Of a stretch of DNA of 64,000 bases, positions 30,430 to 49,382 are shown in pieces. The translations under genes and the position numbers were made by a program. Positions within the stretch are counted from its first letter, which is position 1, and each line of letters begins with the position of its first letter. The notes under the pieces are model-generated. The model did not search any database and was not told where the DNA came from. It saw only the letters and a program-made list of their open reading frames with translations. Origin of the DNA: Thermoanaerobaculum sp. GTDB taxonomy: Bacteria > Acidobacteriota > Thermoanaerobaculia > Multivoradales > UBA5704. Where the stretch lies: contig JAJKHS010000032.1 in the NCBI GenBank assembly GCA_021154885.1, forward strand, positions 46,833 to 110,832. The letters run 5' to 3'.

Positions 30430-33400
30430 TCAGGCCGTGCGCCGTCGCCGCAGGAGGAGCAGGGCGGCGCCGGTGAGGGCCAGGAAGAGGATGGCGAGGC
30501 CGAAGTCGCTCAGGGTCGGGACTTCGGCGATCGGCACGACGATGTCGACCGAGGTCGGGTCGCCGGCCGCCGGGGTGGCGGGATCGTCCGTGACGCCGGC
30601 GGTGTCATTGGTACCGTCACCATTGGAATCGAAGGAGAACGATCCCTGGTTGGAGATCGTCTGGCCGGCGGTGCCCGCGTTCACGGTGGCGGTGATGGTG
30701 ATCGTCACCGAGCTGTTGGCGGGGATCGCTCCGTTCCAGGTCACCGTGTTGGTGCCGATGGTGGCGACGGCGGTGCCGGAGGTCGCGGTGGCGGTCGCCA
30801 GCGTCAGGCCCGCGGGCAGGACGTCGGTGAATTCGTTGCCCGGATTGTCCGCCTGGGCCACGCCGCCGCTGTTGGTGAGGACCACGGTGTAGGTGAGGGT
30901 GGAGCCTTCCTGGGGCGACCCGCTCACCGTCTTGGTGGCGGTGATGAAAGGCGCGGCCGCGACCGCGAACGCGGTCGGGTCGCCGGCCGTCCCGGTGCCG
31001 GGGTCGTCCGTCTGGGCGCTCGACTCGTTGCTGCCGTTGAGGTCGGCGTCGAAGGCGATCGTCCCCTGGTTGGAGATCGTCGTTCCACCGGTGCCGGGCT
31101 TGATGGTGGCGGTGATGGTGATCGCCACCGTGCCGCCGACGGGCGGGATGGCGCCATTCCAGGTCACCGTGTTGGCGCCGACCGTGGCGACGGCGGTGCC
31201 GGAGGTGGCGGTGGCGCTGACCAGGGCGAGGCTCGCGGGCAGGACGTCGGTGAATTCGTTGCCCGGGTTATCGGCCTGAGCGCCGGTGCCGTTGTTGGTG
31301 AGGGTCACCGTGTAGGTCACGGTGCCGCCCACGTTGAACGTGCCGGCCACGGTCTTGGTACCGGTCACATTTGCGGCCGGCGCAAAGGCGGAACAGGTGA
31401 AGGCCGTCGGCGTCACGATGATCGACCAGGCATTGAGCGTGCCTGCGAAGCTGCGGAAGTTGTCGGCCACCAGTGCCTTCCAGTCGCCCTGCGTGCTCAA
31501 GCCCGCCATCCGTCCGAGCTGACCGTTTGGATCGGGGAAAATGCTGGGGTCTCCGAACAGATTCCAGATGAAGGAATTGAAGGCCGGTGACCAGTCGCCG
31601 GTGTATGGCGCGTCGGAGTCGGCTGAGAGGTTGAGGTCGTTGGCCGAGTTGTCGTCGATCAACGTGTTGATGAAGTTCTGGCCGAAGAACTCGCCGATCA
31701 GGATTCCACGCAGCCAGATGAGATCGCTGCCGTAGCCGTTGGGGGCGCGCAGCAGGACGGTGAGGTCGTCCGTGGCCGGGTGCTGGACGTTGTCCACCCG
31801 GAACTGGAGGCTGGAGATCTCGAAGTCGTCGGTGATGCTTTGCGTGTCGGCGATGCCGCGCGGATCTCCGTCCGGAATGGCCAGGGCGGGATTGAGCGTC
31901 CGGGTGTAGGTGACCGGCGCGCCGGTGCCCGAGGGGGTGCCGACGCGGACCGTGAAGCTCACGGTGGCAGTGCCGAGCGTGCTGGTGATCTTCAGGCTGA
32001 AGTGGATCGCCTGGCCGCACAGGACACTGGGCGCGGCCGTGAAGACGAAGGGGGTGCCGGTGGCGACGTTCTTGGCCGGGATTGGCCCGTAGGCCGAGGT
32101 GCCGGTGAGGATGGTGACGCCAGGTGTCGAGGAGGTCAGGGTCGCCGTGGTCCCCGCCGGCACGTTGAAGGCCGTATTGCGCCACGGGTTGAGCAATTCG
32201 ACGGCGAGCTTGATCGGCTCGCCGGGGTCGATGGCGCCGTTGTTGTTGCCCAGGGAGTCGTCCACCGTGAAGGTCGACAGGTCCAGATTGGGCGTGGCAA
32301 ATGAGGTGCCGACGCTCATGTGGCCGAAGTTGGCGAAGCCGACCTGGCCGAGCGGGGCGACGGCGCCGTAGCCCAGGCCGCGGTCGGCGAAGCCCTGCCA
32401 GATCGACTTCTCGTTGGCGCAGGCGTTGGTGATGCAGTCGGCCTGGATGAGCGCGTCGCGGGCGTCGGTGAAGCTGGGATCGAGGGGCGTCAGCTTCAGG
32501 GCGTCGGTGACGATCTGCAGCATGGTGGCGTTGCCGGTCGGAACGTCGCCGTTGGCGCCGGCAGGATCGGCGATCACCCGGCTGCGCACCTCCCAGAGCG
32601 TCAGGGCCCAGATCTCGCCGATGTTGTGGACCTCCAGGCCGCCGTTGAATTCGAAGCCCAGGGGACTGATGGGGATGCCGCCCGAGTCGTTGGCCGTGAC
32701 GTCGTCCACGTCCGCCCAGGTGAGCGGGTTGACCGTGTTGTCCGTCGTGTAGGGGAACCGGCGGATGCCGTAGAGATAGTTGTCGGTGAGGCCGCCGAGC
32801 TGGTAGGTGGCATAGGCCCCTGCCGCGTACTTGGCGTTCGGGTCATCCACGTTGTTGCCGTGGAGCAGCGACAGGGCGTAGAAGTCGCTCCAGCCCTCGC
32901 CCATCCCTTCGCCCGGGCTCCAGATGAGGCCGCCGGCGTCGCCGACCAGCCGGTTGGAGAGGCCATGGGTCAGCTCGTGGAGCACGATCGTGGCATCGAG
33001 AGAGCCGTCGCGCTCCGGGGAGGGGAAATCGAAGAGGAACATCTGCATGCGGCCGGACGACCCGTCCGGAGGTGTGGAGAAGTTGGAGTTGTCGGTGCCC
33101 GAGCCGTCCTGCGCCTCGGCCAGCACCGGATCCCCGCCCGCTCCCATGCCGCTGAAGTTGGTGGCCTGGAAGTTCCCCGCCGCCTCGTCGAAGCCGAGGT
33201 TGAAGAGCTGGTCGTGGTACCAGTTGGTGAGATAGAAGAGATGGGTCACGATGCCGCGCTGATAGGGTGCGAGCGTGGGGTCGTCGCCGGCGTCCGGGTT
33301 GCCGCCCACGGGGGGCGGGTTGTAGGTGTAGTCGCGCGGCGCGGCGCCGAGGAAGTCGCGATTGTTCGTGTTGGCGTCCGGGTTGCCCACCGGCCGGCCG

Positions 33401-34626
33401 TTGTTGTCCAGGGCGCCGGTGTCCGGAGCGTCGTCGTCGTCGGTATCCAGATAGGCGTCGACGTTGTTGCCCGTCGTCGTCGTACCGCCGTCGGGGATCC
33501 AGCCGTCGGGGCTGGCGGTTGAGTCCTGCGCCGTGGACATGTTGACGATCGTGCGGGCGATCTCCGGGAACTGGGTGCCGGAGCCGGGGGTGACGTCGGT
33601 CGGGTTGTGAGGCGCCGGGCTCTCGGCCGGGGTTTTTCCATCGCCAAGCACGTAGACGCTGAACCGCGCCTCCTGAGTCGAGGCGTGGGCGCGGATGTCC
33701 TTGCGCCAGAGCAGGGCGCCGCTGACGGCGTCGACGATCGTGTACCAGTCCGCATCGCCCTTGGTGAAGGTGATCTGCCGCCAGGCGGGAACGAGCACGC
33801 CGGGCGCGGCCGGGAAGTAGACGACGTCGCTCGCCACCGCGCCGGCGATCCGCGGATCGTTGGCCAGGACGCGGGTCTGGGTGCCGTTGGCGTTGGTCGC
33901 TTGCACGGCCATGCGGGTGACGTCGAGGCTCAAGCCCACGGATTTCATCGCCGCCACCAGCGCCTGCGGAGCGGAGACGGCGGGCGGCAGGGGGACCGAG
34001 GGCGCGGCGGCGGCCGGCATCAGCAGGCCGAGGGAGCGCCAGACGCGGCCGTCGCGGTCGAGGATGAAGCGGGTCTCGCTCTGGAAGAGAGAGCGGCCGT
34101 TGAGCTGCTGCTCGACGCGCACCATGCGCAGGCCGCTGCGCTTGCTCACGCTCTCGCCCAGGAGGTGGAGGGCGTCGATCTCGGCGCTCGTCAGGCCGTA
34201 GAGGGCGCTGTTGGCCTTGAGGTAGTCGCGCACGACGTCGATTCCAGGCCTCCCGGGCGCCGCGGCGGAGAGCGCTCCGCGATTTCCGGAGACGATCTCC
34301 GGCGCCGCGGTGACCGGCGAGAAGCGGGCCGTGGCGCCGGGGGCCGTGGTCTGCAGGCGTTTCAGGGCTTCCTGCATCGACTTGATCTGGTCCTTGACCT
34401 GCGCCGCGCTCGGCAGCGGCTTGAGCGGCACCGTGGGAAGCCCGGCCACGACCGCGGACAGGGCGTGCGCACTGCCGTTCACCCGGACGTCGAAGTTGCC
34501 GGCGAGCTGCGGCTTGGCTGTGGGCGAGCTGGCTGCCCAGCCCGGCAGGGCGGACAGCGTCAGAAGTAAGATTCCCGCCAGCGCGGGCACGAAGCGACAC
34601 CTTCTCACAGACGACGACCAGGGCAT
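30430..34626 (-). CDS. Secreted M36 (fungalysin-type) metalloprotease with proprotein-convertase P-domain, DUF11-type repeats and IPTL-CTERM sorting tail
   Basis: The signal peptide starts at ATG 34626 (an SD lies upstream). HELTHGLSNRL plus GEGWSDF are fungalysin motifs. A P-domain-like block is present (ALAIPDGDPRGIADTQSITDDFEISSLQFRV...). There are two DUF11-like repeats (GTVTYTVTLTNNGTGAQADNPGNEFTDVLP). The C-terminus is VPTLSDFGLAILFLALTGAALLLLRRRR. Confidence 0.85.
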   Translation of the reverse strand: MPWSSSVRRCRFVPALAGILLLTLSALPGWAASSPTAKPQLAGNFDVRVNGSAHALSAVVAGLPTVPLKPLPSAAQVKDQIKSMQEALKRLQTTAPGATARFSPVTAAPEIVSGNRGALSAAAPGRPGIDVVRDYLKANSALYGLTSAEIDALHLLGESVSKRSGLRMVRVEQQLNGRSLFQSETRFILDRDGRVWRSLGLLMPAAAAPSVPLPPAVSAPQALVAAMKSVGLSLDVTRMAVQATNANGTQTRVLANDPRIAGAVASDVVYFPAAPGVLVPAWRQITFTKGDADWYTIVDAVSGALLWRKDIRAHASTQEARFSVYVLGDGKTPAESPAPHNPTDVTPGSGTQFPEIARTIVNMSTAQDSTASPDGWIPDGGTTTTGNNVDAYLDTDDDDAPDTGALDNNGRPVGNPDANTNNRDFLGAAPRDYTYNPPPVGGNPDAGDDPTLAPYQRGIVTHLFYLTNWYHDQLFNLGFDEAAGNFQATNFSGMGAGGDPVLAEAQDGSGTDNSNFSTPPDGSSGRMQMFLFDFPSPERDGSLDATIVLHELTHGLSNRLVGDAGGLIWSPGEGMGEGWSDFYALSLLHGNNVDDPNAKYAAGAYATYQLGGLTDNYLYGIRRFPYTTDNTVNPLTWADVDDVTANDSGGIPISPLGFEFNGGLEVHNIGEIWALTLWEVRSRVIADPAGANGDVPTGNATMLQIVTDALKLTPLDPSFTDARDALIQADCITNACANEKSIWQGFADRGLGYGAVAPLGQVGFANFGHMSVGTSFATPNLDLSTFTVDDSLGNNNGAIDPGEPIKLAVELLNPWRNTAFNVPAGTTATLTSSTPGVTILTGTSAYGPIPAKNVATGTPFVFTAAPSVLCGQAIHFSLKITSTLGTATVSFTVRVGTPSGTGAPVTYTRTLNPALAIPDGDPRGIADTQSITDDFEISSLQFRVDNVQHPATDDLTVLLRAPNGYGSDLIWLRGILIGEFFGQNFINTLIDDNSANDLNLSADSDAPYTGDWSPAFNSFIWNLFGDPSIFPDPNGQLGRMAGLSTQGDWKALVADNFRSFAGTLNAWSIIVTPTAFTCSAFAPAANVTGTKTVAGTFNVGGTVTYTVTLTNNGTGAQADNPGNEFTDVLPASLALVSATATSGTAVATVGANTVTWNGAIPPVGGTVAITITATIKPGTGGTTISNQGTIAFDADLNGSNESSAQTDDPGTGTAGDPTAFAVAAAPFITATKTVSGSPQEGSTLTYTVVLTNSGGVAQADNPGNEFTDVLPAGLTLATATATSGTAVATIGTNTVTWNGAIPANSSVTITITATVNAGTAGQTISNQGSFSFDSNGDGTNDTAGVTDDPATPAAGDPTSVDIVVPIAEVPTLSDFGLAILFLALTGAALLLLRRRRTA

Positions 34627-36015: not shown

Positions 36016-38166
36016 ATGATCTCTCTCATTGCATGGTTGCTCCTCCGCGTTGCCACAGAGCTCTCCGCACCCCCGGTGAGGAGCGCTTGGCTCGAGGTCA
36101 CCCCTTTGGCCTCGCAGGACGAGCCGGCGACGGTTGAGCTGAAGGCGCCGGTCGTACCGATGCGGATTCCAGCCCTGAAGGCCGGGTTGGCGCTGGTGTG
36201 CTCCGGCGGTGAAGAGGTCGCCGTAAGCTGTGCGCAGCAGTACCTGAAGGCCGGCGCCGCCGTGGAGCCGGTGCTCCAGCGGGGGGTGAGGGTGACCGCC
36301 CGAGTGCGCGCCGGCAAGGACGCCGTCGTGGGTGCGCGCCTGGCCCTCGTCCCCAAGGAGCTGCGGTCGCGGCGCTTCGTCACCCTGCCGCTCGGCCGTG
36401 ACAAGGGGACCGGCCGGATGATCCGCGAGGTGGTGACGGATGCGGCCGGCCGGGTGAAGACGCCACAGCTCGCGCCCGGCGAGTACCTCCTCCAGGTGAG
36501 CGCTCCGGGCGGACAGATCCTGCACCAGGAAGTCAGCGTGCCGAGCCCCGAAAGCCTCCTGCCCAAGAGGCCCCAGGCAGCCGGTGCTCAGGCGGTGCTG
36601 GACCTCGGCGAGATCGTCCTCGACCAGGGTGTCGCCATCGCCGTCTTCGTGACGGGACCCGGCGGGGAGCCGGTCCCCGGCGCCAGGGTCGGAGGCCATC
36701 AGGGAGACCGCCCGGAAACGAATCGCTTCTTTGAAACCACGGCCGACGGTGAGGGCAAGGCGGAGATCTCCGGTCTCTCGCCCACGGTTCCGGTGAACGT
36801 CGTCTGCCTGGCTCCGGGGTTCCTGAGATTCCAACAGCATTTCGACGTTCCCCCGCCGGCCGTGGGGTGCTCGCTGCAGCCCCTGGCCCGCATCGAAGGG
36901 GTCGTCCTCGGGAGCGACCGGCGGCCTGTGGCGGGCGCCACGGTCTCCAGCCGGGCCATCGAGCGGCCGGCGACCACCGATTCCGACGGCCGCTTTCTGT
37001 TCGTCGACCTGGCCGCCGGAACCTACGCGCTGACGGCGGTCGCCCGCCGCTACGGTCCGGAGCGGGTCTCCGTGACCGTGGCGGCTGGAGAGCGGCGCGA
37101 GCTGCCTCCGATCGAGCTGAGCCTGGGCCGGAAGCTCCGGGGGCTGGTGAAGGACGGCGGCAGCGGCGAACCCGTGGCCGGAGCCCGGATCGTCTCGGTC
37201 GATCCCCTGGGTGCCGTGGACGAGGTGAGCGGGGGCGACGGGGAGGTCACCTTCGCCGCCGGCGAGGATCCGCTCCACCTGCGCGCCTCCGCCGAGGGCT
37301 ATCCGGATGCGGAGATGGAAATCGACCCCGGCAAGCTGGACGCCAGGACGCTGGACGGGGACAAGTCGGTGACGATCGAGCTCCGGCAGGGCGGGCGGCT
37401 GCGCATCGCCGTGTGGGATGAGGAAGCCGACCAGCCCTGCGCGGGTTGCGCCGTCAACGTCCAGGGTTTTCGTGCGGGCCGGTCCACACGGGTGGTCACG
37501 GACGGCGGGGGAGAGTGCCTCACCGAGCCGCTGGCGCCAGGGCCCTACGCAGTTTCTTCGGTGAACGAGAGGAGCCTCGGCGGGGTGGTCCAGGTCAGCA
37601 GCGGCGGCGAGACCCGGCAGGTGGAGGTGGTCGCGGGAGCGGTGACGCCGGTCCAGTTGGGAGAGAAGTCCCGCGTGGTCCAGGTGCGATTCCGCCCGCC
37701 CGTCCCGGAAGGCTGGAAGCTGTCCGCGGACTCGCCCTCCGGAAGCCGCAACGCCGAGCCGCTCGGCGACGGCTCGTTCGCGGTGCGCAGGCGGCCCGGC
37801 AGCGCCGTGGTCCTCCAGCTTTTTGGCGGCGCCAACGTCACCGTCCGGCAGTCCGTGCTGCCGGCGGACGACGACCGGCCGCTGATCGAGCTGCCCCTCC
37901 CCTCCGGTGCAATTCACGGCACCCTCGTCGCGGGAAAGCCGGCGGCCGGCGGCCGGGTTCTCACCATTGCCTCCGCCGGCGACGGCACGGTCCAGGCCTC
38001 GGCCTTGATCGCCGGCGAGGGAGGCTTCGCCGTTCCGTTCCTGCCCGCGGGTCTCTACACACTGCTGGTGGACGGCCGGCCCATCCGCTCCTTCACCCTC
38101 GCCCCTGATCAGGAGGAGGATCTCGGGAGCATCTCCCTCAAGGCTCCGGTTAAGATGCAGCCATGA
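36016..38166 (+). CDS. Multi-domain CarboxypepD_reg-like (Ig-like beta-sandwich repeat) protein
   Basis: At least five repeats of the pattern G.V.D..G.PV.GA.V......TD..G.F.F..L..G.Y.L, for example IEGVVLGSDRRPVAGATVSS...TDSDGRFLFVDLAAGTYALTAV. The gene starts 12 nt after the peptide gene. Confidence 0.7.
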   Translation: MISLIAWLLLRVATELSAPPVRSAWLEVTPLASQDEPATVELKAPVVPMRIPALKAGLALVCSGGEEVAVSCAQQYLKAGAAVEPVLQRGVRVTARVRAGKDAVVGARLALVPKELRSRRFVTLPLGRDKGTGRMIREVVTDAAGRVKTPQLAPGEYLLQVSAPGGQILHQEVSVPSPESLLPKRPQAAGAQAVLDLGEIVLDQGVAIAVFVTGPGGEPVPGARVGGHQGDRPETNRFFETTADGEGKAEISGLSPTVPVNVVCLAPGFLRFQQHFDVPPPAVGCSLQPLARIEGVVLGSDRRPVAGATVSSRAIERPATTDSDGRFLFVDLAAGTYALTAVARRYGPERVSVTVAAGERRELPPIELSLGRKLRGLVKDGGSGEPVAGARIVSVDPLGAVDEVSGGDGEVTFAAGEDPLHLRASAEGYPDAEMEIDPGKLDARTLDGDKSVTIELRQGGRLRIAVWDEEADQPCAGCAVNVQGFRAGRSTRVVTDGGGECLTEPLAPGPYAVSSVNERSLGGVVQVSSGGETRQVEVVAGAVTPVQLGEKSRVVQVRFRPPVPEGWKLSADSPSGSRNAEPLGDGSFAVRRRPGSAVVLQLFGGANVTVRQSVLPADDDRPLIELPLPSGAIHGTLVAGKPAAGGRVLTIASAGDGTVQASALIAGEGGFAVPFLPAGLYTLLVDGRPIRSFTLAPDQEEDLGSISLKAPVKMQP

Positions 38167-38849: not shown

Positions 38850-38979
38850 GGGGGGCGCGCTTCCCCATAAGCTCTGGCTTTGCTTCAGCGCCAGGCCAGC
38901 AGCCTCCTCCAGGCCTGATTCGACAAGGCGCAGACCCTGGGCGGCGACTGCAAACTCCTCCGCAGTCCCTGCTGCCGCG

Positions 38980-39190
38980 GCAGCAGTCATCGCTGTCCCG
39001 GCAGCAGTCGTCGCTGGCTCGGCAGCAGTCGTCGCTGGCTCGGCAGCAATCATCGCTGCCGTGGCAGCAGCCATTGCTTGCTTGGCAAGCAGTCATTGCT
39101 GCCAAGGCAGCAGTCATCGCTGGCTCGGCAGCAGTCATCGCTGGCTTGGCAGCAGTCGTCGCTGGCTTGGCAGCAGTCGTCGCTGGCTTG
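38980..39190. repeat. Tandem array of ten 21-bp units (consensus GCAGCAGTCGTCGCTGGCTYG), one unit being 22 bp
   Basis: Units begin at 38980, 39001, 39022, 39043, 39064, 39085 (22 bp), 39107, 39128, 39149 and 39170. The central units are diverged. Confidence 0.9.
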
Positions 39191-39240
39191 GCAAGGCCCA
39201 GACCAGACCCGACCGCAGGCATCGAGGTCAAAGTTTGCGT

Positions 39241-39636: not shown

Positions 39637-41793
39637 TCAGTCTACCCGGGTGGCCAGCGGATCGCCGTAGAAACAGTAGGCCGCGTAGGTGTCCTCGCCG
39701 CCATCGGGGGCGTAGGACTTGGCCCGCAGATCGCGCAGGATGGCGGCGAAAGGCGTCGCCGGTTCGGCCTTGACCCGGCGATAGAACTCCACGGCGATCT
39801 CGTGGGCGATCGTGTCCTTGACGCTCCAGAGCGGGGCGATGACGGCGCTGGCACCGAGGGCCATGAGTTCCTCGGCAAAGCCGCCGGTACCCACCAGCGC
39901 GGGCTCCTGCCGGCCGACTTCGCAGGCGTTGAGGAAGACCAGGGGCCTGGAGGTCGCGAAGCCCTTCTCGATGCCCGGCATGGCGGCGAGCGCGCTGGAG
40001 TAGAGCTCCTGCTTCTGATCCATGACGAGCACCTGGCTGCCGCCGTCGCCGCTCTTGCCGTGGCAGACGAAGTGGAGGAGAGCCCGGCCTTGCTGCTGGA
40101 AAGCTTGGTCCAGTGCCCTGGCGGAGGCAGGATCGATTCGCATTCCATGGAAACCCTCCACGACCACCTTGGCCTCATTCTCGGCGGCTCCGAGCCTGGA
40201 GTCACGCGGAGCTACTACATAGGCGTCGCGCAGCGGGATTTTTTGTGGCGGATGGATGTCGTCGTCGGAGGTCCAGCGGCTCAGCAGGAACTCGATGCCC
40301 AGCGGCTCGCGTTTCTGGAGCTTGCCGCCAGGAGGCCGTCGGTTTGGCACCATCAGCTCCCAGGGAATATTGGGCTCTTGGGTGATAATGGAGATCGTCT
40401 TCGGCGGCTTGCCGGAATCGATCAACTCCCAGAAAACTTTCTGGAAGAGGGTTGGCGCGGCCTTGAAAAGTTTCAGCCCGGCGCCACGCAGGGCCGTCGT
40501 GCGGTCCCAGTCACTCGCTCCCTTGGCGGTGAACTGGACCATCTGCTGGCGTACCAGGTCCCGGGCCAGGCTGCTCAGCCGCCACTTTTCGATGACGCCG
40601 TCCTGGTAGGAAGGGAGTAGGGACGTCTGGATCTTGCATTGGAAATTGCGTTCGTCGGTGGCCGATGCGACGATCTGGACATTGAGGTCTGCCGGCTGGG
40701 CTGAAGCCTCGACTCGCACGATCGGGCGGCTTGCCGGCGTCTCTTCCTGAGCTTCCGTGGTCAGAGGAACGGCGCGGCTCACCTTGCCGCAGGCTCGTCC
40801 GTTGTAGGCGAAGAGGGCCGAGAATGTCGCGGTCCCGGTTCCTCCGCCCTTCTTGCGGACGACCGTGAACACGGCCGATTCCGAGCGCTCCTGGTCGCGA
40901 AGGATGGTCAGCTCCTGGATAACGGGTCCCTCAACTTCAAAGGGTTTCTCGACCACCAGCCAGACGTTCAAGTCGAACTGCGTCTGATCAGGAGAGACCT
41001 CCAGGACCACGTCCTCTCCCTCTTCCCCTCTGCGCAGCGCCCCGATGTCGGTGTATACAGAGACCTGGATCTGAGCGTCTGCCGCGGGCGGCGGGGGATC
41101 GAGATCCATGTGTGGCGTGCGCCGGAGGATCTCAGAGGCCATATGATCGGAGGTCGCCCGAGTTGGTTCCAAATGGGGCTCAGGATCCGGAGGGGCCAGG
41201 CTCATCGCATTGCGCGAGTCAGAAGTCCTGACGACGTTCTCGGCAGCCAAGCCCTTGGTTCCCTGTACCACGTCGAACTCCACGCGGTCACCCTCGGCGA
41301 GCGACTTGAAGCCGTTGCCCCGAATGGCCGAATGATGAACAAAGCAGTCCTTCTGCCCGTCCTCCGGGGTGATGAAACCGAAACCTTTACTGTCGTTGAA
41401 CCACTTCACTCTTCCGCGGCGCGGATGGGCCTCGTGGTCGCTGAGCGGTTCCTCGTAGGGAGGCCGTGCGCTGTCTATTCGCGCACGGTCGCCGTCAGGA
41501 CTGGGAAAATGTTCCCTCGGCTCAATTGGATGCTCTCTCTTGTCTGTTCGCTGGCGACCCGGGTCGGGAGTGGGCATTGAGTTGTCGACCGCCTTGGCGC
41601 TGTCAGTCTCCCTTCTGACCTTCGGAATCAGCTCCATCAGCTTCAGGAGATACCGTTCGGCGTTGGCACGGCGCCGGCCATTGAGAGCCACAACCTGCAG
41701 GAATAGGGTGCGGGCCGTGGCGAAGTCGCCGGTCTCGTAGGCGCGCTGGGCGGCCTGGAAGAGGCTCTCCTCGCGATCAGGCGATCCGCTCAC
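39637..41793 (-). CDS. CHAT-domain (caspase-like) protease fused to a cold-shock domain
   Basis: The cold-shock domain (CSD) covers residues ~127-189 ([31 protein letters not shown]..., nt 41227-41415). The CHAT dyad is His578 in [10 protein letters not shown] (nt 40060-40062) and Cys624 in VFLNACEVG (nt 39922-39924). IPWELM motif present. GTG start with an AAGGAG SD, overlapping the upstream gene by 17 nt. Confidence 0.85.
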
Positions 41794-43204
41794 GCTGATG
41801 CTCCTTGCCGTTCTCGTCGATGTAGCGCACGGCGATCTCGGGGCCGTCGAAGTCCAGCACCGCGAAGCCGAAGAGGGCCCAGCGCTCCAGACCCTTGTCG
41901 ATGAAGTCGCGGTACTCGTAGAAGGCCGGTGCCGGGTAGGGGTCGTTCTCGGCGTGGGTCATGTAGACGGGCACGCCGCCATGGCCGAGGCAGCGGGCGT
42001 CGATTCCCTGGTAGGGATCGTAGAAGACGCAGCGGTGCTCGTGGCCCCAGAGCCAGCTCTTCACCCGCCCGGTGGCGAGGACGGGCTTGATCTTTTCGCT
42101 CAGGACGTCGTTCCCGCTCTCGTAGGCGCTGAAGATCTGGTGGTGGGAGAGAAGCATCCCCTTGCCGGAGGAGTCGGTGAGCGTCCGCTGCGCCCATTGG
42201 GCCTGATGGCCTTGCAAGCCGCCGTCCTCCCAAGCGGTGTCCAGCGCGAGCAGCGTCCAGTGATCGTTGCGCAGGCTGAAGTAGCTCTTCCCCTCCTGGC
42301 GCTTGAACCGCGGGTCCTGGAGGACGTAGCCGTAGAAGGCATGGCCGCCGGAGTACATGTCGTGATTGCCGTTGAGGTTCCAGGAGGTGATCCGGTCCTC
42401 CTCGCCCAAGCGGACAGGCCAGTATTGGAGGAAGCGATTACGATACTCATACTCCCAGCCTGAGTAGTAGACGTCGCCGAGGTGAACGACGTGCTGCTCG
42501 CGCTGGTGTGCAATCCCCTCGTCCAGCACCTTGCGCATCTCGTTCGCGACTTTCTGAGCGCGGGGAAGGCCCGAGCCCCAGTCGCCCACCACCACGAGAC
42601 GCGCGCGGTCGCCGATCTGCACCGCCGTGGCGGCCTCGTCCGGGAAGGGAAAGCGGCCCCGGAGCTTGCGCACCCCCTCGGCGACGAGCGAGCTGACCCA
42701 GCGGATATCGAAGATCGAGAACTTGTCGAAGATCCGCCGGCCGTCGAGGTCACGCGATGGCGGAGGGGCGTCCGCCAGCGAGACGTCCGTCACCGCGACA
42801 TCGTCCTGGAAGGAGCGGCGGTCGTCGGGAAGGTCGGACTGCGCCAGCTTTTCCTTCTCCGTCAGGACGTGCTCCAGGGCGGACTGGAGGTTGCTGAGGA
42901 CGGCGTCGCGGCTGAAGAAAGAGAAGTCGTCGATCGGCGCCGGCTCCTCGCCCCGGCGTTCGGGCGGCGGCGGCTCGAACCCCTTCTGGCCGCTGGAGGC
43001 CAGCGTCTCCTGCTGGAGGGCCTCGTCGATCGCCGCCAGCGCCAGGGCGGCGTCCTGCGGCTCGATCTCAGGTCCCTCGGTCGCCGTCGCCATAGTGCGG
43101 CGTTCGGGCGTAGCGGCCTCCTGCAGCTCCCGCCGCACCTCTTCCAACTGATCGAGCACGAACTGGCGGTTCAGCACCTGGGCAATCAAGGGTTCTCCTC
43201 GCAC
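41777..43204 (-). CDS. Cytoplasmic metallophosphoesterase with purple-acid-phosphatase-type motif set and ~200-aa acidic N-terminal extension
   Basis: Motifs GDWG, GDVYY, GNHD, LLSHH and GHEH in canonical order. No signal peptide. The start is uncertain (GTG 43204 or ATG 43093). Confidence 0.8.
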
Positions 43205-43384: not shown

Positions 43385-45178
43385 ATGAGACCCAAGAAAC
43401 TCGGGGAATTCGTCATGCTGCTGACACTGCTGACCGCCGTGGCCGGAGCGCAGCAGGTGACGCTGCCCCTGACCCAGTACGAGGACCTGCGCACCCGCGC
43501 CAATCCGGCGGCCGAGGCGCTGGCGCCGCCCCCCGCCCCCTTCGCCCTGGAGCTGGCCGACTTCGACGTCACCGCCGGCCCGGTGAGCGCCCGGGTGGCC
43601 CAGACCCTGCGCCTGACGCTCTATGACGACAAGTGGCAGACGGTGCCGCTGGGCGATCCGGGCTCGTTCATCCACGCCGATCTCGCCGGCGTCGAGGGAC
43701 GGGTGGACGCCTCGGACAAGGGCTGGGCCCTCCACGTCCGCGGCCGCGGACGGCACGAGGTGCGGCTCGAGTCCGCCGTGCCCGTGACCCGCGACGAGAC
43801 GGCCACCCGCCCGACGTGGCGCTTCGGCCTGAAGCTGCCGCCGGCCGCCGTGGTCCGCGGGCGGATCGCGGTGGCGACGACGACGGCGGTAGAGGAGGTC
43901 GAGATCGACGGCGCCGGCCAGATGAGCCCTCAGGAGGGCAAGGCCGCGGGCAGGCCGTGGAGCTTCGTGGCGGTCCCCGGCGGCGAGGCGCACTGGACGC
44001 TCTCCGGCCGGGCCACCCTGCCGGCCCGGGCCCAGCTCCCGTTGCGCTGGGAGGCCACGTCCGCCACGGCGACGGCTCTCACCCGCACCCGCCTGCGAGT
44101 GTTCGGCTGGATCGAGGCGCGGGTAGCCCAGGGGCGCCTCGCGGAACTGCGGGTGCCCATCCCCGACGGGCTGGAGGTCGCCTCGGTGCAGGGGGGCGCC
44201 GGCTGGAAGATGGACGGCAGGACGCTGGTGGTCACGCCGCTGGCGCCCGTCGAGGACGCCTTCGCCGTCGAGCTGGAGCTGACGGGCGAACCGCGGGACG
44301 CCTTCGCGACTCCCCTGCTCCTGCCCCAGGGGAGCGCCCGCACGACGCTCCTCGCCAAGGCCGTGCTCAAGGGCGGCGACGGCCAGCTCAGCCTGGCCGA
44401 TCCGGGCTCCTTGCGAACCGCGGGCGATGCCGACGCGGCCCGGCTCCCCGCGTCGCTGCGCTCGGCCGAGGGCAAGCTCTACGTCGTGACCGATGCGGCC
44501 CGGCCGCCACGCTGGGCCGCGGAGTGGGCGGAGCGCACCGAGGTGCTGGCCTCCGAGATCGACCGCCTGCTGGTGGACGTGGCGGTGGGCGAGGCCGGCC
44601 GCGCCTCGTACCAGCTCTGGGCGGAGGTGCGCAACCGCGGCGCCCAGCAGCTCACCTTCGTCCTGCCCGCCGGCTTCGAGCTCGCCTCCGCCCGCGACGA
44701 CGGCGCGCCCGTCACCCCCGGCACGGCGGCCGGCGGCGGGCTCTCCGTCCCCCTCCTCACCCAGGAGGCGACGCAGGTGGTCCACCTGAGCGGCCTCCTC
44801 CCCCTCGCCCTGCCCCGCGACGACGGCAGGCTGGAGGTGCCGCTGCCGGCCCTCTCGGCGCCGGCGGCGCGGATCGAGGTGCGGGTGGTCCTGCCCGGCG
44901 GCCGCTCCTACAAGCTGGCCGACGCCGCCCGCAACGGAACCATCTCCGCGCCGCCGGGGACGGCCCCCCGCAAACCCGCCGCCGGCATGGCCCGGCAGGT
45001 GGACGCGCAGGTCAACTCCGCCCTGCGCTCCTCGCCGGCACCGGCCGCCGTTACCGCCTTCTTCGCCATCCCCCCAGGCTTCACCGAGATCCGCGCCGCC
45101 TGGAGCGCCCTCTCGGCCACCCCCGCACCTCTGGCCTTGCGCGCCGAGGTGGAGAAGGAGAGACCGCAATGGTTCTGA
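43385..45178 (+). CDS. Hypothetical secreted protein (597 aa), paralogue of the next gene
   Basis: AAGGAGGAG SD. Signal peptide MRPKKLGEFVMLLTLLTAVAGAQ. The N-terminal motif VTLPLTQYEDL is shared with the downstream protein (VLLPLKDYLAL). Confidence 0.7.
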   Translation: MRPKKLGEFVMLLTLLTAVAGAQQVTLPLTQYEDLRTRANPAAEALAPPPAPFALELADFDVTAGPVSARVAQTLRLTLYDDKWQTVPLGDPGSFIHADLAGVEGRVDASDKGWALHVRGRGRHEVRLESAVPVTRDETATRPTWRFGLKLPPAAVVRGRIAVATTTAVEEVEIDGAGQMSPQEGKAAGRPWSFVAVPGGEAHWTLSGRATLPARAQLPLRWEATSATATALTRTRLRVFGWIEARVAQGRLAELRVPIPDGLEVASVQGGAGWKMDGRTLVVTPLAPVEDAFAVELELTGEPRDAFATPLLLPQGSARTTLLAKAVLKGGDGQLSLADPGSLRTAGDADAARLPASLRSAEGKLYVVTDAARPPRWAAEWAERTEVLASEIDRLLVDVAVGEAGRASYQLWAEVRNRGAQQLTFVLPAGFELASARDDGAPVTPGTAAGGGLSVPLLTQEATQVVHLSGLLPLALPRDDGRLEVPLPALSAPAARIEVRVVLPGGRSYKLADAARNGTISAPPGTAPRKPAAGMARQVDAQVNSALRSSPAPAAVTAFFAIPPGFTEIRAAWSALSATPAPLALRAEVEKERPQWF

Positions 45179-47493
45179 AGACGAGAATCCTCGCCCTGAC
45201 GCTGACCTTGTCGATATCCACCGGAACCCCGGGGCTGCGGGCCGCGGACGCCCCGCGGCCGGGGGAGGTGCTGCTCCCCCTGAAGGATTACCTCGCGCTC
45301 GTCGAGACCGTCGAGCGGCTCGACCGCGAGCGGGCCCAGCGGCAGGCCCGCCGCGAGAAGCCGCTCGCCGAGGTGGTCTCCCAGCGTCTGCGCATCGTCC
45401 TGGGAGAGGAGACGGCGGACGTGACCTCCGAATTCGAAGTCCTCGTCCAGGGCGAGCCCAAGGAGCCGGTATCCCTCCCCCTCGCCTGCGTCCCCCTGGA
45501 GGTGGAGGCGAAGGCCCTGGGCATCACCCCGCCAGGGACCGGTCCGGCCGCCGCCGTCACCGCCAGCGCCAGGAGCGGCGAGCTGTGGCTCGTGGCTCCG
45601 GGGCCGGGGCGCTACGCCGTCAAGGTCACCGGGCCGCTGCTCGTGGGCAAAGGGGTGAGCCGCCTCACGCTGCCCGCGGCCGTGGCTCCCGTGACGGTGA
45701 CGGAGATCGACCTGCCGGCCGATCGCGCCTTCGACGCGCCCGGCGCGGTGATCGTCGACGACCGGGTGGAGGGCGGCCGGCGGAAGATCCAGCTCACCAC
45801 GCGCCGCGGCGAGGCGCAGACGGTGGAGGTGCGGCGCAAAGTGGATGGCAGCGAGGCCGAGAAGCTGCTGGCGCAGAGCGTCGTCCTCACCCTGGTGCAG
45901 CTCCTGCCCGACGGTCCCCGGCGCCACGACGTGGTGCTCTACGAGGTCTCCCGCGGCGGCCTGGGGAGCTTCACCGTGGACCTGCCGCCCGGGCTCGCGG
46001 TGGAGCAGGCCGGCACGGACGAGGGGGACGTCATCCCCGTGGTGGAGTCCCGCCGGCTGACGGTGAACCGGCACAACCAGCTCCGCGGCACCGGGTATCT
46101 GGTCCTCACCTCGACGCCGGCCCCCGGCGCCGAGGTCCCCCTGGAGCCGATCGTCCCAGTCATCCCGGTCATCCCAGTCATCCCAGCCATCCCAGCCAGG
46201 CCGGCGACCGACGTGCGGGCCCGCTACCTCGCCCTCGCCTCGGCGGTGGCGGCCGATGCGCGCCCGCTGCCCCAGGCGAGCTGGACGCGGGTGGACCTCG
46301 ACGACCTGCCCCCGGCCCTGCGCGAGGCCCTGAGCGCCATCGACCTTACGGCGGCGTGGCGGCTCACCGGCGGGACGTCTGCGGGGGCGGGGGAAAAGAT
46401 GGCCGTGGCGCTGCTGCCGGTCGCGCCGTCGCTGCCGCTGCTGGTCAAGCGGCGGGAGACCACGACGCTGCTGACTGTGGACGGCACCCTGCTGCATCGC
46501 GACCGGCTGATCCTGCGGCCGCCCGGGGGCTTGAGCGCGGCCCTCGACGTCGTGTTGCCGGCCACGGCCAAACTGTGGTCCGTCAAGGTGGACGAGGTAC
46601 CGGTGCGTCCCCTGGACCGGAAGAACGGCACGCTCTCCATCCCCCTGGGCTTCGAGACCGGCCGGGAGCCGGTGGTCGAGATCGTCTCCGTGCTGGAGAA
46701 GGCCATCCCCGCCGGCCGCTCGGAGCTCGCCCTCACCCTGCCGCAGATCGCCGTCCCCGTGCAGGCCCACGAGTGGCGGGTGCTGCTGCCGGACGGTCCC
46801 CGATATCGTTTCCGCTCGGGGGAGCTGCGGCCGACACCGGTACGCAATCCCTGGGCGGTTCTGCAGCCGACACCCGGGGTGCTCACCGATCGCATCGCTA
46901 CGGGCAGCAGCGCCACGGCGGCGGGAGGTACGGCGGCCATCGCCGGCAAGGTCATGGACGACAAGGGAGCGGCCCTGCCGGGAGTAACCGTCACGCTCTC
47001 CGCTCAATGGGTCGTGGCCACGGATGCTCTGGGCCGTTTCGCCTTCCGGGGGCTGCCCGCCGGCACCTACAGCCTCAAGGCGGAGCTGGAGGGTTTCTCC
47101 ACCATCGAGTACCCCAACCTCCGGCTCGCCACCGGGCAGACCGCCGTGCCGGAGATCCGGCTGTCGGCCGCGGTGGAGGACGTCATTACCGTGACCGCCG
47201 AGACTCCCCTGCTCGATCAGAGCCGGATCAGCACCGGTACGAACGTCGCCCCCAGCGAGCTGGAGCGGATTCCGACGTCTCACCGTGAGAAGAAGAAGGA
47301 CGAGGTGGATCTGGAGGCGCGGCGGGCGAAGGCCCTCTTCGCCCAGGAGGCGCAGGGGCTCCAGCAGGGCCTGGTCGGCGGCGTCAAGCCGCTGCCCATC
47401 GCCATCCCCGAATCGGGGAAGGTGCTGTTCCTCACCGGCGTGCTGCCGCCGGCGAAGGTGGGAGTGGAGCTGGAGGTGAAGGGGAAGCGGTAA
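45169..47493 (+). CDS. Hypothetical secreted protein (774 aa) with C-terminal CarboxypepD_reg domain and TonB-receptor-plug-like segment
   Basis: 10-nt overlap with the upstream gene, AAGGAGAG SD, signal peptide. The C-terminal segment IAGKVMDDKGAALPGVTVTL...GRFAFRGLPAGTYSLKAELEGF...ITVTAETPLLD resembles the N-terminus of acidobacterial TonB-dependent receptors. Confidence 0.7.
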   Translation: MVLKTRILALTLTLSISTGTPGLRAADAPRPGEVLLPLKDYLALVETVERLDRERAQRQARREKPLAEVVSQRLRIVLGEETADVTSEFEVLVQGEPKEPVSLPLACVPLEVEAKALGITPPGTGPAAAVTASARSGELWLVAPGPGRYAVKVTGPLLVGKGVSRLTLPAAVAPVTVTEIDLPADRAFDAPGAVIVDDRVEGGRRKIQLTTRRGEAQTVEVRRKVDGSEAEKLLAQSVVLTLVQLLPDGPRRHDVVLYEVSRGGLGSFTVDLPPGLAVEQAGTDEGDVIPVVESRRLTVNRHNQLRGTGYLVLTSTPAPGAEVPLEPIVPVIPVIPVIPAIPARPATDVRARYLALASAVAADARPLPQASWTRVDLDDLPPALREALSAIDLTAAWRLTGGTSAGAGEKMAVALLPVAPSLPLLVKRRETTTLLTVDGTLLHRDRLILRPPGGLSAALDVVLPATAKLWSVKVDEVPVRPLDRKNGTLSIPLGFETGREPVVEIVSVLEKAIPAGRSELALTLPQIAVPVQAHEWRVLLPDGPRYRFRSGELRPTPVRNPWAVLQPTPGVLTDRIATGSSATAAGGTAAIAGKVMDDKGAALPGVTVTLSAQWVVATDALGRFAFRGLPAGTYSLKAELEGFSTIEYPNLRLATGQTAVPEIRLSAAVEDVITVTAETPLLDQSRISTGTNVAPSELERIPTSHREKKKDEVDLEARRAKALFAQEAQGLQQGLVGGVKPLPIAIPESGKVLFLTGVLPPAKVGVELEVKGKR
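46150..46194 (+). repeat. Five tandem 9-bp units (GTCATCCCA-like) inside the 45169..47493 CDS, encoding (V/A)IP repeats
   Basis: atcgtccca gtcatcccg gtcatccca gtcatccca gccatccca encodes IVPVIPVIPVIPAIP. Confidence 0.85.
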
Positions 47494-49175: not shown

Positions 49176-49382
49176 GGATTGTTTTGAACGTTTCGAGCAT
49201 CGCCAAGATTTGCCTGCAATGTTCCGGGAGCTCAGCCCCGAAGGGGATTGTTTTTGAAACGCTTCGAGCATCGCCGAGATTCGCCTGCAATGTCCGGGAG
49301 CCAGGCCCGAAGGGGCGAAAGCATGTAGCCAGGGGCGTCAGCCCCAGGTAGGTCGCCGAAAAGAAACCTTAGCCCCGAAGGG
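49176..49382. repeat. Three tandem 69-bp units on the CRISPR flank (two similar, the third diverged), each ending in GCCCCGAAGG or GGCCCGAAGG
   Basis: Units are 49176-49244, 49245-49313 and 49314-49382. Units 1 and 2 align along their full length with few differences. Confidence 0.7.

What the first reader, a model, noticed from the sequence alone, without database searches (positions are those of the whole stretch)
39637..41793. Unusual domain fusion: cold-shock domain embedded upstream of a CHAT caspase-like protease
The sequence shows a canonical CSD (KGFGFI RNP1-like and CFVHH RNP2-like motifs, residues ~127-189) flanked by low-complexity linkers. Next come a beta-rich middle region, the IPWELM motif and a CHAT domain with an intact His578/Cys624 dyad. 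The first ~55 residues look like a TPR-like helical hairpin. CHAT proteins are usually fused to TPR, WD40 or NTPase sensor modules. A small OB-fold RNA/ssDNA binder as the apparent sensor is something I have not seen described, and it suggests nucleic-acid-gated proteolysis independent of CRISPR effectors.
Basis: partly seen in the sequence, partly recalled or inferred. Interest (0 to 1): 0.7.

Follow-up and report, generated by a model that had tools for sequence, protein, structure and literature searches.

The report
Cold-shock domain inserted in CHAT protease
A caspase-like (CHAT) protease gene, normally paired with a phosphatase gene in a widespread but unstudied two-gene module, has picked up a complete RNA-binding cold-shock domain in its flexible arm in one small soil-bacterial lineage. 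The fusion is real and rare, but the domain is a late add-on, not the family's built-in sensor.

Summary
ORF 39637-41793(-) encodes 718 aa with a canonical CspA-type CSD (res 126-189, Pfam E 8e-29) and a CHAT domain. His578 is invariant and Cys624 at least 90% conserved across 150 relatives, and Cys624 aligns to the catalytic Cys907 of DdvA.

The interpretation needs revising:
- Residues ~220-718 (beta-sandwich, helical region, CHAT) form a large uncharacterised family, with 414 clusters at E<=1e-30.
- In 28 of 43 genome loci across several phyla, a purple-acid-phosphatase-type metallophosphoesterase (MPE) gene lies directly upstream. Here it is 41777-43204(-), overlapping the CHAT gene by 17 nt. 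Sometimes the MPE is fused to the core.
- The region N-terminal to the core is variable. It is usually a TPR-like helical hairpin plus a disordered linker, but can be MPE, protein kinase, alpha/beta-hydrolase or TPR.
- The CSD sits inside that linker in only two proteins: this one and a syntenic orthologue at 69% identity. It is under purifying selection while the linkers have diverged.
- A distant branch independently carries an RRM plus an RGG linker at the same position.

Best reading: the CSD is an accessory single-stranded nucleic-acid tether or input on an MPE-CHAT module. It could instead be a releasable cargo. Function is untested.

The parts
39637..41793 (-). CSD-CHAT protease gene, 718 aa, GTG start
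   Evidence: ORF list; Pfam CSD + CHAT; start position agrees with homologues beginning VNGSPDREE / MSGS...
41593..41781 (-). N-terminal helical hairpin/three-helix module (res 5-67), TPR-like; conserved in most non-fused family members
   Evidence: AF2 helices 5-20, 24-37, 42-67 at pLDDT ~95; weak TPR_2 hit E 8e-4, below cut-off; aligned across family; 57% id, dN/dS 0.35 vs orthologue
41428..41592 (-). Disordered low-complexity linker 1 (res 68-122)
   Evidence: pLDDT ~30; 42% identity with indels to orthologue; length-variable in family alignment
41227..41418 (-). Cold-shock domain (res 126-189) with RNP1 KGFGFI and RNP2 CFVHH. It is a lineage-specific insertion.
   Evidence: Pfam E 8.4e-29; NCBIfam Csp models; Foldseek CspA/CspE TM 0.8-0.86; translation; 78% id, dN 0.115 vs orthologue; up to 90% identical to CSDs in soil metagenome contigs that carry no CHAT core
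41140..41226 (-). Disordered linker 2 (res 190-218)
   Evidence: pLDDT 32-43; 26% identity with indels to orthologue
40759..41139 (-). Start of the conserved family core: RRTPHMD motif and beta-sandwich (res 219-345). It aligns with the DUF7363-containing region of the sister-branch protein P0072.
   Evidence: Near-invariant R225, P227, H228, E257; strands 221-343; hhalign to P0072 prob 99.6% from this motif onward; no direct Pfam DUF7363 hit
40399..40758 (-). Middle beta/helical region (res 346-465) of the core
   Evidence: AF2; conserved W404, F421, G439, W455
39640..40398 (-). CHAT (clan CD caspase-fold) protease domain (res 466-718). Includes IPWELM (40351-40368), His578 (40060-40062) and Cys624 (39922-39924).
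   Evidence: Pfam CHAT; Foldseek Csx29/DdvA/separase; invariance; Cys aligned to DdvA C907; codons checked
41777..43204 (-). Upstream partner gene: 475-aa metallophosphoesterase of purple-acid-phosphatase type, with a ~200-aa N-terminal extension. Its stop overlaps the CHAT gene start by 17 nt.
   Evidence: Pfam Metallophos 202-392; phmmer to human/pig/rat PAP, E 1e-8; Foldseek PAP E 1.5e-14, TM-target 0.63-0.69; GDWG, GDVYY, GNHD, SHH, GHEH motifs conserved in 27-31 homologues; upstream of the CHAT core in 28 of 43 loci

Best explanation
The finding is one gene of a two-gene, probably translationally coupled operon, oriented MPE then CHAT. This operon type is widespread in soil and freshwater bacteria and has not been characterised.

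The constant parts are:
(a) a cytoplasmic purple-acid-phosphatase-type metallophosphoesterase;
(b) a protease core made of a beta-sandwich that starts with an RRTPHMD motif, a helical region, and a CHAT caspase-fold domain with a His/Cys dyad.

The part N-terminal to the core is a modular arm. It is usually a small TPR-like helical module on a long disordered linker. In other members it is replaced by a fused MPE, Ser/Thr kinase, alpha/beta-hydrolase or TPR array.

In one Thermoanaerobaculia sub-lineage, a complete CspA-type cold-shock domain became embedded in that linker and has been kept under purifying selection. It is up to 90% identical to CSDs on soil contigs that carry no CHAT core.

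Inferred mechanism, not shown: the CSD acts as a single-stranded RNA/DNA tether on the flexible arm. It concentrates or orients the protease, and through it the phosphatase, on single-stranded nucleic acid. That adds a nucleic-acid-dependent input or site of action to a module whose primary control lies elsewhere, probably in the beta-sandwich/helical core and in phospho-signalling with the MPE or kinase partners.

Shown: domain identities, catalytic residues, operon conservation, rarity and selection on the CSD, and a convergent RRM insertion. Inferred: complex formation between MPE and CHAT, RNA binding by this particular CSD, any effect on proteolysis, the substrates, and the biological role (conflict/defence versus stress signalling).
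For: - Domain calls and dyad.
- The core family is large. 414 clusters at 50% identity score E<=1e-30, and the best 150 all match only residues ~200-716.
- An MPE lies immediately upstream on the same strand in 28 of 43 full-length genome loci from Acidobacteriota, Actinomycetota, Alpha- and Gammaproteobacteria, Verrucomicrobiota and Gemmatimonadota. No other neighbouring gene family is conserved.
- An MPE-core fusion exists, P0044. Starting instead from MPE homologues in Edaphobacter and Bradyrhizobium also leads to a CHAT gene directly downstream.
- The 17-nt stop/start overlap recurs in L071 and L074.
- The MPE is PAP-type with all metal-ligand motifs.
- Alternative N-termini: Pkinase, DUF7379 hydrolase, TPR, HEAT, TCAD7, a second CHAT.
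- The CSD is present only in P0001 and P0002. P0002's locus is syntenic: MPE at 83.5% identity, the CSD-CHAT gene, then DNA_alkylation. A more distant syntenic relative, L074, lacks the CSD.
- Selection: the CSD is 78% identical with dN 0.115, against 26-42% identity with indels in the linkers.
- Convergence: P0072 and five related clusters carry RRM_1 followed by an RGG-rich linker immediately before the homologous core start. hhalign gives 99.6% probability over 496 columns.
- Some family members sit in defence/mobile islands, next to Peptidase_C14+TIR, HipA, AbiEi, a transposase, nSTAND NTPases or a Schlafen-like gene.
Against: - No experiment exists, and no co-folding or contact evidence shows that the CSD touches the core or that MPE and CHAT bind each other.
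- CSDs bind single-stranded nucleic acid with low specificity and RNA is always present in a cell, so a simple on/off sensor role is hard to picture.
- The closest core relative, L001/P0003 at 84% identity, has neither a CSD nor an adjacent MPE. The CSD is therefore dispensable and has been either lost or recombined away.
- In this lineage the operon sits among ordinary chromosomal genes in conserved synteny, not in a defence island.
- The PADLOC models give no hit for the MPE and only a weak SAVED_CHAT hit for the protease.
Confidence: 0.5

Rival explanations
1. One reading: the CSD is the sensor. Binding of foreign or abnormal single-stranded RNA/DNA to the CSD allosterically switches on the CHAT protease. 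This would be nucleic-acid-gated proteolysis without CRISPR.
For: - The CSD is intact and under purifying selection.
- An RRM+RGG module was independently inserted at the same place in a distant branch.
- There is precedent that CHAT proteases can be RNA-gated through a partner. Craspase/Csx29 is the top structural match, and PMC11506125 describes the allosteric alignment of its dyad.
Against: - Hundreds of family members have the complete core and no nucleic-acid-binding domain, so the family's activation mechanism cannot depend on it.
- The CSD is separated from the core by disordered linkers of pLDDT about 30 on both sides.
- From established knowledge of CspA-family proteins, CSDs bind abundant cellular RNA non-specifically.
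- The nearest relative has lost the CSD or never had it.
Confidence: 0.2
2. Cargo model: the N-terminal arm is a payload. On activation the CHAT protease cuts its own flexible linker, in cis or in trans, and releases the N-terminal module. Here that would be a free cold-shock protein acting as an RNA chaperone, antiterminator or toxic nucleic-acid binder. In other members it would be a kinase, hydrolase, MPE or sigma factor.
For: - The CSD is flanked on both sides by fast-evolving disordered linkers, like a bead on a string.
- The same position in relatives carries self-sufficient enzymes or regulators: MPE, Pkinase, DUF7379, ECF sigma, acyl-CoA synthase, DnaK-like, T6SS sheath-like and TIR.
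- DdvA, a structural match, is proposed to self-cleave its linker to free an ECF sigma factor (PMC11506125).
- CSDs are listed among predicted effector domains of conflict systems (PMC7159879), and retron Se72's effector is a CSD protein (NF038236).
Against: - No conserved cleavage motif is visible in the linkers, which are 26-42% identical with indels.
- The DdvA self-cleavage is itself unproven.
- In the commonest architecture the arm is only a ~60-aa helical hairpin with no obvious stand-alone activity.
Confidence: 0.2
3. The CSD serves the phosphatase, not the protease. In an MPE-CHAT complex it would deliver RNA or ssDNA ends, or nucleotides, to the metallophosphoesterase.
For: - The MPE gene is tightly coupled to the CHAT gene.
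- An unrelated MPE+CSD fusion exists, P0067.
- Calcineurin-superfamily effectors in conflict systems are predicted to be nucleotide phosphodiesterases (PMC7159879).
Against: - This MPE is of the purple-acid-phosphatase type, with the GDxxY tyrosine ligand. From established knowledge, enzymes of that type are phosphomonoesterases and phosphoprotein phosphatases.
- The alternative fusion partners are protein kinases and, in the sister branch, FHA domains. That points to protein phospho-signalling rather than nucleic-acid chemistry.
Confidence: 0.07
4. Neutral accident: a csp gene fragment landed in a tolerant disordered linker and has no function in this protein.
For: The linker tolerates large insertions and deletions. 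Only two clusters carry the CSD. The nearest relative lacks it.
Against: - The CSD is kept intact at 78% amino-acid identity with dN 0.115, while the adjacent linkers have diverged to 26-42% identity with indels over the same interval.
- The RNP motifs are intact in both copies.
- The RRM insertion elsewhere is convergent.
Confidence: 0.03

Closest known systems
Csx29 / TPR-CHAT of type III-E CRISPR (Craspase)
   Same: It is the best structural match to the C-terminal half (Foldseek E 3.6e-11 to 7e-10). Both are CHAT caspase-fold proteases with a His/Cys dyad and a helical N-terminal region. In Craspase the activity is coupled to RNA recognition.
   Different: There is no Cas7-11/gRAMP, CRISPR array or Csx30/31 nearby. 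Structure-aligned sequence identity is only 10-12%. This protein has a beta-sandwich in place of the TPR array. Any RNA contact would be direct, through a fused CSD, rather than through a crRNA-guided partner. The conserved partner is a phosphatase.
DdvA, the CHAT-containing anti-sigma factor of Myxococcus xanthus (PDB 8ROT; PMC11506125)
   Same: It is the only PDB sequence hit with the family profile (E 1.2e-4), aligned across the catalytic Cys motif. Foldseek gives E 2e-9. A CHAT module is attached through a flexible linker to an N-terminal regulatory module, and self-cleavage of that linker has been proposed. The sister branch of this family includes ECF-sigma fusions.
   Different: DdvA is a transmembrane protein with a periplasmic TPR-CHAT and a zinc-binding anti-sigma domain. 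This protein has no predicted membrane segment (by inspection of the sequence), no anti-sigma domain and no sigma partner.
Separase
   Same: CHAT/caspase fold match (E 2e-8). From established knowledge, and as summarised, separase is regulated by phosphorylation and by substrate phosphorylation. That parallels the phosphatase, kinase and FHA associations of this family.
   Different: Separase is eukaryotic, has a giant helical N-terminus, is inhibited by securin and has no nucleic-acid-binding domain.
SAVED-CHAT (type III CRISPR / CBASS-associated protease)
   Same: Weak PADLOC hit to SAVED_CHAT over the CHAT region only (E 1.2e-7, residues 552-674).
   Different: There is no SAVED domain, and no cyclase or Cas10 in the neighbourhood.
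CspA-family cold-shock proteins and the retron Se72 (type V) CSD effector
   Same: The CSD segment scores E 1e-25 to 5e-31 against CspE/CspC/CspA models and is 56-67% identical to solved Csp structures. CSDs up to 90% identical sit on soil metagenome contigs that carry no CHAT core. Weak hits to the retron CSD models PDLC02916 and NF038236.
   Different: Here the CSD is embedded in a 718-aa protease, not a ~70-aa free protein. All Csp and retron model scores are below the equivalog cut-offs. There is no reverse transcriptase or msr/msd nearby.

Membership tests
CHAT domain proteases (Pfam PF12770, clan CD) | Significant match to the CHAT profile | tested here: met
   E 1.1e-15, 58.3 bits vs cut-off 24
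CHAT domain proteases (Pfam PF12770, clan CD) | Caspase-type His/Cys catalytic dyad present and conserved | tested here: met
   H578 is invariant and C624 at least 90% conserved in 150 sequences. C624 aligns to DdvA catalytic C907.
CHAT domain proteases (Pfam PF12770, clan CD) | Caspase/separase-like fold | tested here: met
   Foldseek to Csx29, DdvA, separase and Dronc, E 4e-11 to 9e-5, on a predicted model (pLDDT 78)
CHAT domain proteases (Pfam PF12770, clan CD) | Proteolytic activity | not testable with these tools
   Needs an enzyme assay
Cold-shock domain (PF00313) | Profile match with RNP1 and RNP2 motifs and a five-stranded OB fold | tested here: met
   E 8.4e-29; KGFGFI and CFVHH; strands 125-133, 138-143, 150-153, 170-178, 181-189; TM-target 0.8-0.86 to CspA/CspE
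Cold-shock domain (PF00313) | Binds single-stranded nucleic acid | not testable with these tools
   Needs EMSA or fluorescence titration
Type III-E Craspase (Csx29) | Encoded with Cas7-11/gRAMP, a CRISPR array and Csx30/Csx31 | tested here: not met
   Neighbours are an MPE, DNA_alkylation, CarboxypepD_reg proteins, an M36 protease and a kinase. Only one Rfam hit in the window, an sRNA.
SAVED-CHAT | N-terminal SAVED cyclic-oligonucleotide sensor domain | tested here: not met
   The PADLOC hit covers only profile positions 129-247, the CHAT part. No SAVED hit in Pfam.
Retron type V / Se72 CSD effector | Score above the equivalog cut-off, and an adjacent reverse transcriptase plus ncRNA | tested here: not met
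   NF038236 scores 43.3 bits vs cut-off 82. No RT among the neighbours.
Purple acid phosphatase-type metallophosphoesterase (the partner gene) | Five motifs GDxG, GDxxY, GNH(D/E), xxxH, GHxH, plus the PAP fold | tested here: met
   GDWG 207-210, GDVYY 243-247, GNHD 279-282, SHH 353-355, GHEH 387-390 are conserved. phmmer E 1e-8 and Foldseek E 1.5e-14 to mammalian PAPs. Motif definitions come from established knowledge of PAPs.
MPE-CHAT two-gene module (defined here, not a published family) | PAP-type MPE gene immediately upstream on the same strand of a gene encoding the RRTPHMD beta-sandwich plus CHAT core | tested here: met
   Window genes 41777-43204 and 39637-41793 overlap by 17 nt. The same arrangement occurs in 28 of 43 genome loci and in L071-L078.
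Known anti-phage defence systems (PADLOC-DB v2.0.0) | Both genes match models of a catalogued system | tested here: not met
   MPE: no hit. CHAT protein: only weak single-domain hits to CSD_V and SAVED_CHAT.

The most novel reading that the evidence does not exclude
The variable N-terminal modules of this CHAT-core superfamily are integrated baits, as in plant NLR-ID receptors. They include cold-shock domain, RRM, ECF sigma factor, DnaK-like, T6SS sheath-like, kinases and phosphatase. On this reading they are copies of host proteins that phages or other invaders bind or modify, and the beta-sandwich/CHAT core fires when the bait is engaged. The CSD-CHAT protein would then guard the cell's cold-shock/RNA-chaperone machinery, and the MPE-CHAT pair would be a new, widespread protease-based immune module.
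Probability: 0.1. Interest if true: 0.85.

Novelty: new variant of a known kind. Interest (0 to 1): 0.55.

Why it matters
Prokaryotic CHAT and caspase-like proteases have recently proved to be signal-gated executioners in immunity, in Craspase, SAVED-CHAT, TIR-caspase Thoeris and the gasdermin-activating proteases. In each case the useful step was working out what switches them on.

This locus points to a large family that has not been examined: at least 414 clusters at 50% identity for the core, and thousands of hits for the partner phosphatase. The protease in this family is hard-wired to a purple-acid-phosphatase-type enzyme, or alternatively to Ser/Thr kinases.

It also offers two independent natural experiments, CSD here and RRM+RGG elsewhere, in which a single-stranded-RNA-binding domain was grafted onto the same spot. 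If RNA binding modulates or localises proteolysis, this would be a compact protease with a direct RNA input and no CRISPR partner. That would interest both bacterial cell biologists and tool builders. If instead the arm is a cleavable cargo, the family is a general protease-released effector platform.

In either case the two-gene module is small enough to clone and test.

Tried and rejected
1. Looking for more CSD-CHAT genes.
- A metagenome scan with CSD plus beta-sandwich as the query returned 80 loci. All contain only a CSD match, up to 90% identical, and none contains the core. The exact-peptide patterns used would miss diverged copies, so this is weak negative evidence.
- The exhaustive representative search and the word-indexed search found only P0001 and P0002.

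2. Known defence systems. PADLOC gave no system-level match. PHROGs gave only generic cold-shock and metallophosphoesterase hits.

3. Homotypic adaptor idea, that the N-terminal hairpin resembles part of the MPE. hhalign of the MPE alignment against the CHAT alignment gave 2% probability, so this was rejected.

4. A direct Pfam DUF7363 assignment for the beta-sandwich found no hit even at E<=10. Homology to the DUF7363-CHAT branch rests on hhalign alone.

5. A third conserved gene. All-against-all clustering of ORFs from 43 loci found only the core, the MPE and antisense shadow ORFs.

6. Literature searches for CSD+CHAT, CHAT+metallophosphoesterase and DUF7363/7379/7362 found nothing relevant.

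7. A simple single-gain history for the CSD does not fit. The neighbour-joining tree of the core puts CSD-less P0003 next to the window protein, inside the CSD pair, while P0003's linker resembles the CSD-less P0007 type. Loss, recombination or tree error cannot be told apart.

8. CSD docking on the active site cannot be judged. Only two sequences cover the CSD, and no inter-domain error map or coordinates were available.
Full report
**1. The observation**

The minus-strand ORF 39637-41793 (GTG start, 718 aa) exists as described.
- Pfam places a cold-shock domain at residues 126-189 (E 8.4e-29) and a CHAT domain at 532-687 (E 1.1e-15), both far above their curated cut-offs.
- NCBIfam CspE/CspC/CspA models match residues 126-188 at E 1e-25 to 5e-31.
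- Translation of 41227-41418(-) shows KGFGFI and CFVHH. His578, Cys624 and IPWELM map to 40060-40062, 39922-39924 and 40351-40368.
- In 150 family members His578 is invariant and Cys624 is at least 90% conserved. A family profile aligns the NAC motif to the catalytic Cys907 of DdvA (residue identity from PMC11506125).

An AlphaFold2 model (pLDDT 78) gives these segments:
- an N-terminal helical module, residues 5-67, pLDDT about 95;
- disordered linkers at 66-122 and 191-218;
- a five-stranded CSD;
- a beta-rich region at 221-405 and helices at 410-459;
- a caspase-like alpha/beta domain at 466-717.

Foldseek matches the C-terminal half to Csx29/TPR-CHAT, DdvA and separase, and the CSD to CspA/CspE.

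**2. What the gene belongs to**

Homology searches show that the conserved unit is residues ~220-718, not the whole protein.
- The word-indexed search found about 55 relatives of this part, mostly from Thermoanaerobaculia MAGs. Only the window protein and P0002 (69% identity) carry a CSD.
- The exhaustive search of 1.84 billion cluster representatives found 414 clusters at E<=1e-30. The best 150 (E<1e-90) all align only from about residue 200 onward, and none has a CSD.
- A 24-sequence alignment shows a conserved N-terminal helical hairpin, a linker of very variable length and sequence, and then a sharply conserved core that begins at the motif RRTPHMD. The CSD is an insertion inside the linker.

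**3. The conserved partner**

The gene immediately upstream (41777-43204, minus strand, 475 aa) overlaps the CHAT gene start by 17 nt and is a metallophosphoesterase. It is of the purple-acid-phosphatase type.
- phmmer hits human, pig and rat PAP at E about 1e-8.
- A confident model (pLDDT 82.6, pTM 0.85) matches PAP structures at E 1.5e-14 with TM-target 0.63-0.69.
- The five PAP metal-ligand motifs, GDWG, GDVYY, GNHD, SHH and GHEH, are conserved in homologues.

A scan of one genome per species returned 70 loci, 43 of them with a full-length core. In 28 of those 43, an MPE homologue (39-81% identity) lies directly upstream on the same strand. These come from Acidobacteriota, Actinomycetota, Alpha- and Gammaproteobacteria, Verrucomicrobiota and Gemmatimonadota. 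Clustering of all neighbouring ORFs found no third conserved gene.

Other evidence for the pairing:
- P0044 is a direct MPE-core fusion that lacks the helical hairpin.
- The MPE family itself is large, with 3218 hits at E<=1e-5. Two cultured-organism examples, Edaphobacter aggregans and Bradyrhizobium sp. LB13.1, both have a CHAT gene directly downstream.

Where the MPE neighbour is missing, the core often carries a different N-terminal domain. These include Ser/Thr protein kinase (L010, L017), the DUF7379 alpha/beta-hydrolase (L011, L016) and TPR (L018), plus HEAT, TCAD7, a zinc ribbon or a second CHAT domain in other members.

**4. History of the CSD**

P0002 lies on an independent metagenome contig (L071). 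It has the same arrangement: MPE at 83.5% identity with the same 17-nt overlap, then the CSD-CHAT gene, then a convergent DNA_alkylation gene. L074 is a more distant syntenic relative (61% identity) with the same flanking genes and no CSD. The CSD was therefore acquired within a vertically inherited chromosomal locus.

Between the window and L071:
- the CSD is 78% identical, with dN 0.115 and dN/dS 0.35;
- linker 1 is 42% identical and linker 2 is 26% identical, both with indels;
- the core has dN/dS 0.13-0.19;
- synonymous divergence is lower in the CSD (0.33) than elsewhere (0.71-0.86). This is unexplained.

The CSD is up to 90% identical to CSDs on soil metagenome contigs that carry no CHAT core, so it derives from an ordinary csp gene.

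One complication remains. L001/P0003 is the closest core relative (84%) but has neither a CSD nor an upstream MPE, and its linker resembles that of the CSD-less P0007. Loss or recombination has occurred.

**5. A convergent case**

P0072 (1129 aa) is a distant member of the same core family. hhalign gives 99.6% probability over 496 columns, running from IRRHTDVSF, the counterpart of LRRTPHMDL, to the C-terminus.

Its domain order is Pkinase, then RRM_1, then a Gly/Arg-rich linker, then the core. Five further clusters in that branch also have RRM_1. Two unrelated single-stranded-RNA-binding folds have therefore been inserted at the same position, just before the core. That argues that nucleic-acid binding at this point is useful to the module.

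The same search showed that this sister branch carries a very wide range of N-terminal fusions: kinases, ECF sigma factors, acyl-CoA synthase, T6SS sheath-like proteins, FHA+GAF, DnaK-like, TIR, nSTAND and WD40/TPR.

**6. Mechanism**

Nothing here has been tested experimentally. What the data support is a two-component MPE-CHAT module with a modular N-terminal arm.

The recurrent association with a PAP-type phosphatase, protein kinases and FHA domains suggests control by protein phosphorylation, as is known for separase (summarises this).

My preferred reading is that the CSD is an accessory tether or input. It would bring the protease, and its partner, to single-stranded nucleic acid.

It cannot be the family's sensor, because nearly all members lack it. 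It cannot be shown to dock on the active site, because it is flanked by disordered segments in the model.

A serious rival is that the arm is cargo released by self-cleavage of the linker. That fits the bead-on-a-string layout, the self-sufficient nature of the alternative N-terminal domains, the DdvA proposal, and the listing of CSDs among predicted conflict-system effectors (PMC7159879) and as the retron Se72 effector. Weaker rivals are that the CSD serves the phosphatase, or that it is neutral.

**7. Biological role**

Some members sit in clear defence or mobile islands. Examples are a transposase with Peptidase_C14+TIR, HipA and AbiEi, nSTAND NTPases, and a Schlafen-like gene with a second CHAT gene. 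The phyletic spread is patchy.

In this lineage, however, the operon is embedded among ordinary genes in stable synteny. No PADLOC system matches. A conflict/defence role is plausible but unproven, and a stress-signalling role is not excluded.

**8. Comparison and novelty**

The protein is a bona fide CHAT protease and contains a bona fide CSD. It is not a Craspase, SAVED-CHAT, DdvA-type anti-sigma factor or retron effector, because the defining partners or domains of each were looked for and not found (see the membership table).

No paper in the searchable library describes CSD+CHAT or MPE+CHAT.

I classify it as a new variant of a known kind. It is a rare CSD-bearing member of a large, uncharacterised MPE-associated CHAT protease family.

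Interest is moderate to high for researchers working on bacterial caspase-like proteases. The conserved MPE-CHAT module and the convergent RNA-binding insertions contribute more to that interest than this single fusion does.

Noticed in passing
window 38971-39193: A 21-nt tandem repeat with 10.6 copies at 85% match lies in the gap between the DNA_alkylation gene and the 3' end of the CHAT gene. ORFs across it have no Pfam hit. In the orthologous locus L071 this gap holds two small genes, one of them YiaAB-like.
   Followed up: partly
window 49303-49348 (-): Acido-Lenti-1 sRNA (RF01687), 37.8 bits against a gathering score of 37. This fits an Acidobacteriota origin, as do the closest protein relatives from Thermoanaerobaculia MAGs.
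   Followed up: no
window 41227-41418 vs L071 1200-1403: Synonymous divergence in the CSD segment (dS 0.33) is about half that in the rest of the gene (0.71-0.86). Possible causes are gene conversion from a resident csp gene, a later shared transfer, or codon or RNA-level constraint. It was not resolved.
   Followed up: partly
L001 2362-4272 (Thermoanaerobaculia MAG JBAPYB010000160.1): This is the closest core relative (84% identity) but lacks both the CSD and the upstream MPE; a BNR/Sortilin gene sits upstream instead. Its linker resembles the CSD-less P0007 type. That implies loss or recombination.
   Followed up: partly
proteins P0339-P0456 (sister branch, DUF7363-CHAT): The homologous beta-sandwich+CHAT module is fused to an unusually wide set of N-terminal domains: Pkinase, ECF sigma-70, AMP-binding acyl-CoA synthase, T6SS TssB/TssC/TssK-like, FHA+GAF, HSP70/DnaK, TIR_2, nSTAND, WD40/TPR and RRM_1.
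   Followed up: partly
protein P0067 (399 aa, JGI): An unrelated membrane-type metallophosphoesterase carries a C-terminal CSD. This is an independent CSD-phosphoesterase fusion.
   Followed up: no
L075 12089-13473 and L076 4075-5459: A Peptidase_C14 (caspase) gene plus a ThsB-like TIR gene pair sits directly next to an MPE-CHAT pair, in an island that also has HipA, AbiEi, ParB-like and transposase genes.
   Followed up: no
window 30430-34620 (-) and 36016-38166, 45175-47493 (+): There is a large secreted M36 fungalysin-type metalloprotease with DUF11 repeats, and several CarboxypepD_reg-domain proteins flank the operon. The flanking CarboxypepD_reg genes are syntenic with L074.
   Followed up: no
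window 41777-43204 (-), residues 1-200 of the MPE: The phosphatase has a ~200-aa N-terminal extension with no Pfam match. It contains strongly conserved patches, for example GQ at 72-73, R83-R84, DDFSFFSRD at 92-100 and R156-R157. Its role is unknown. It might be a pro-region or an interaction surface.
   Followed up: partly
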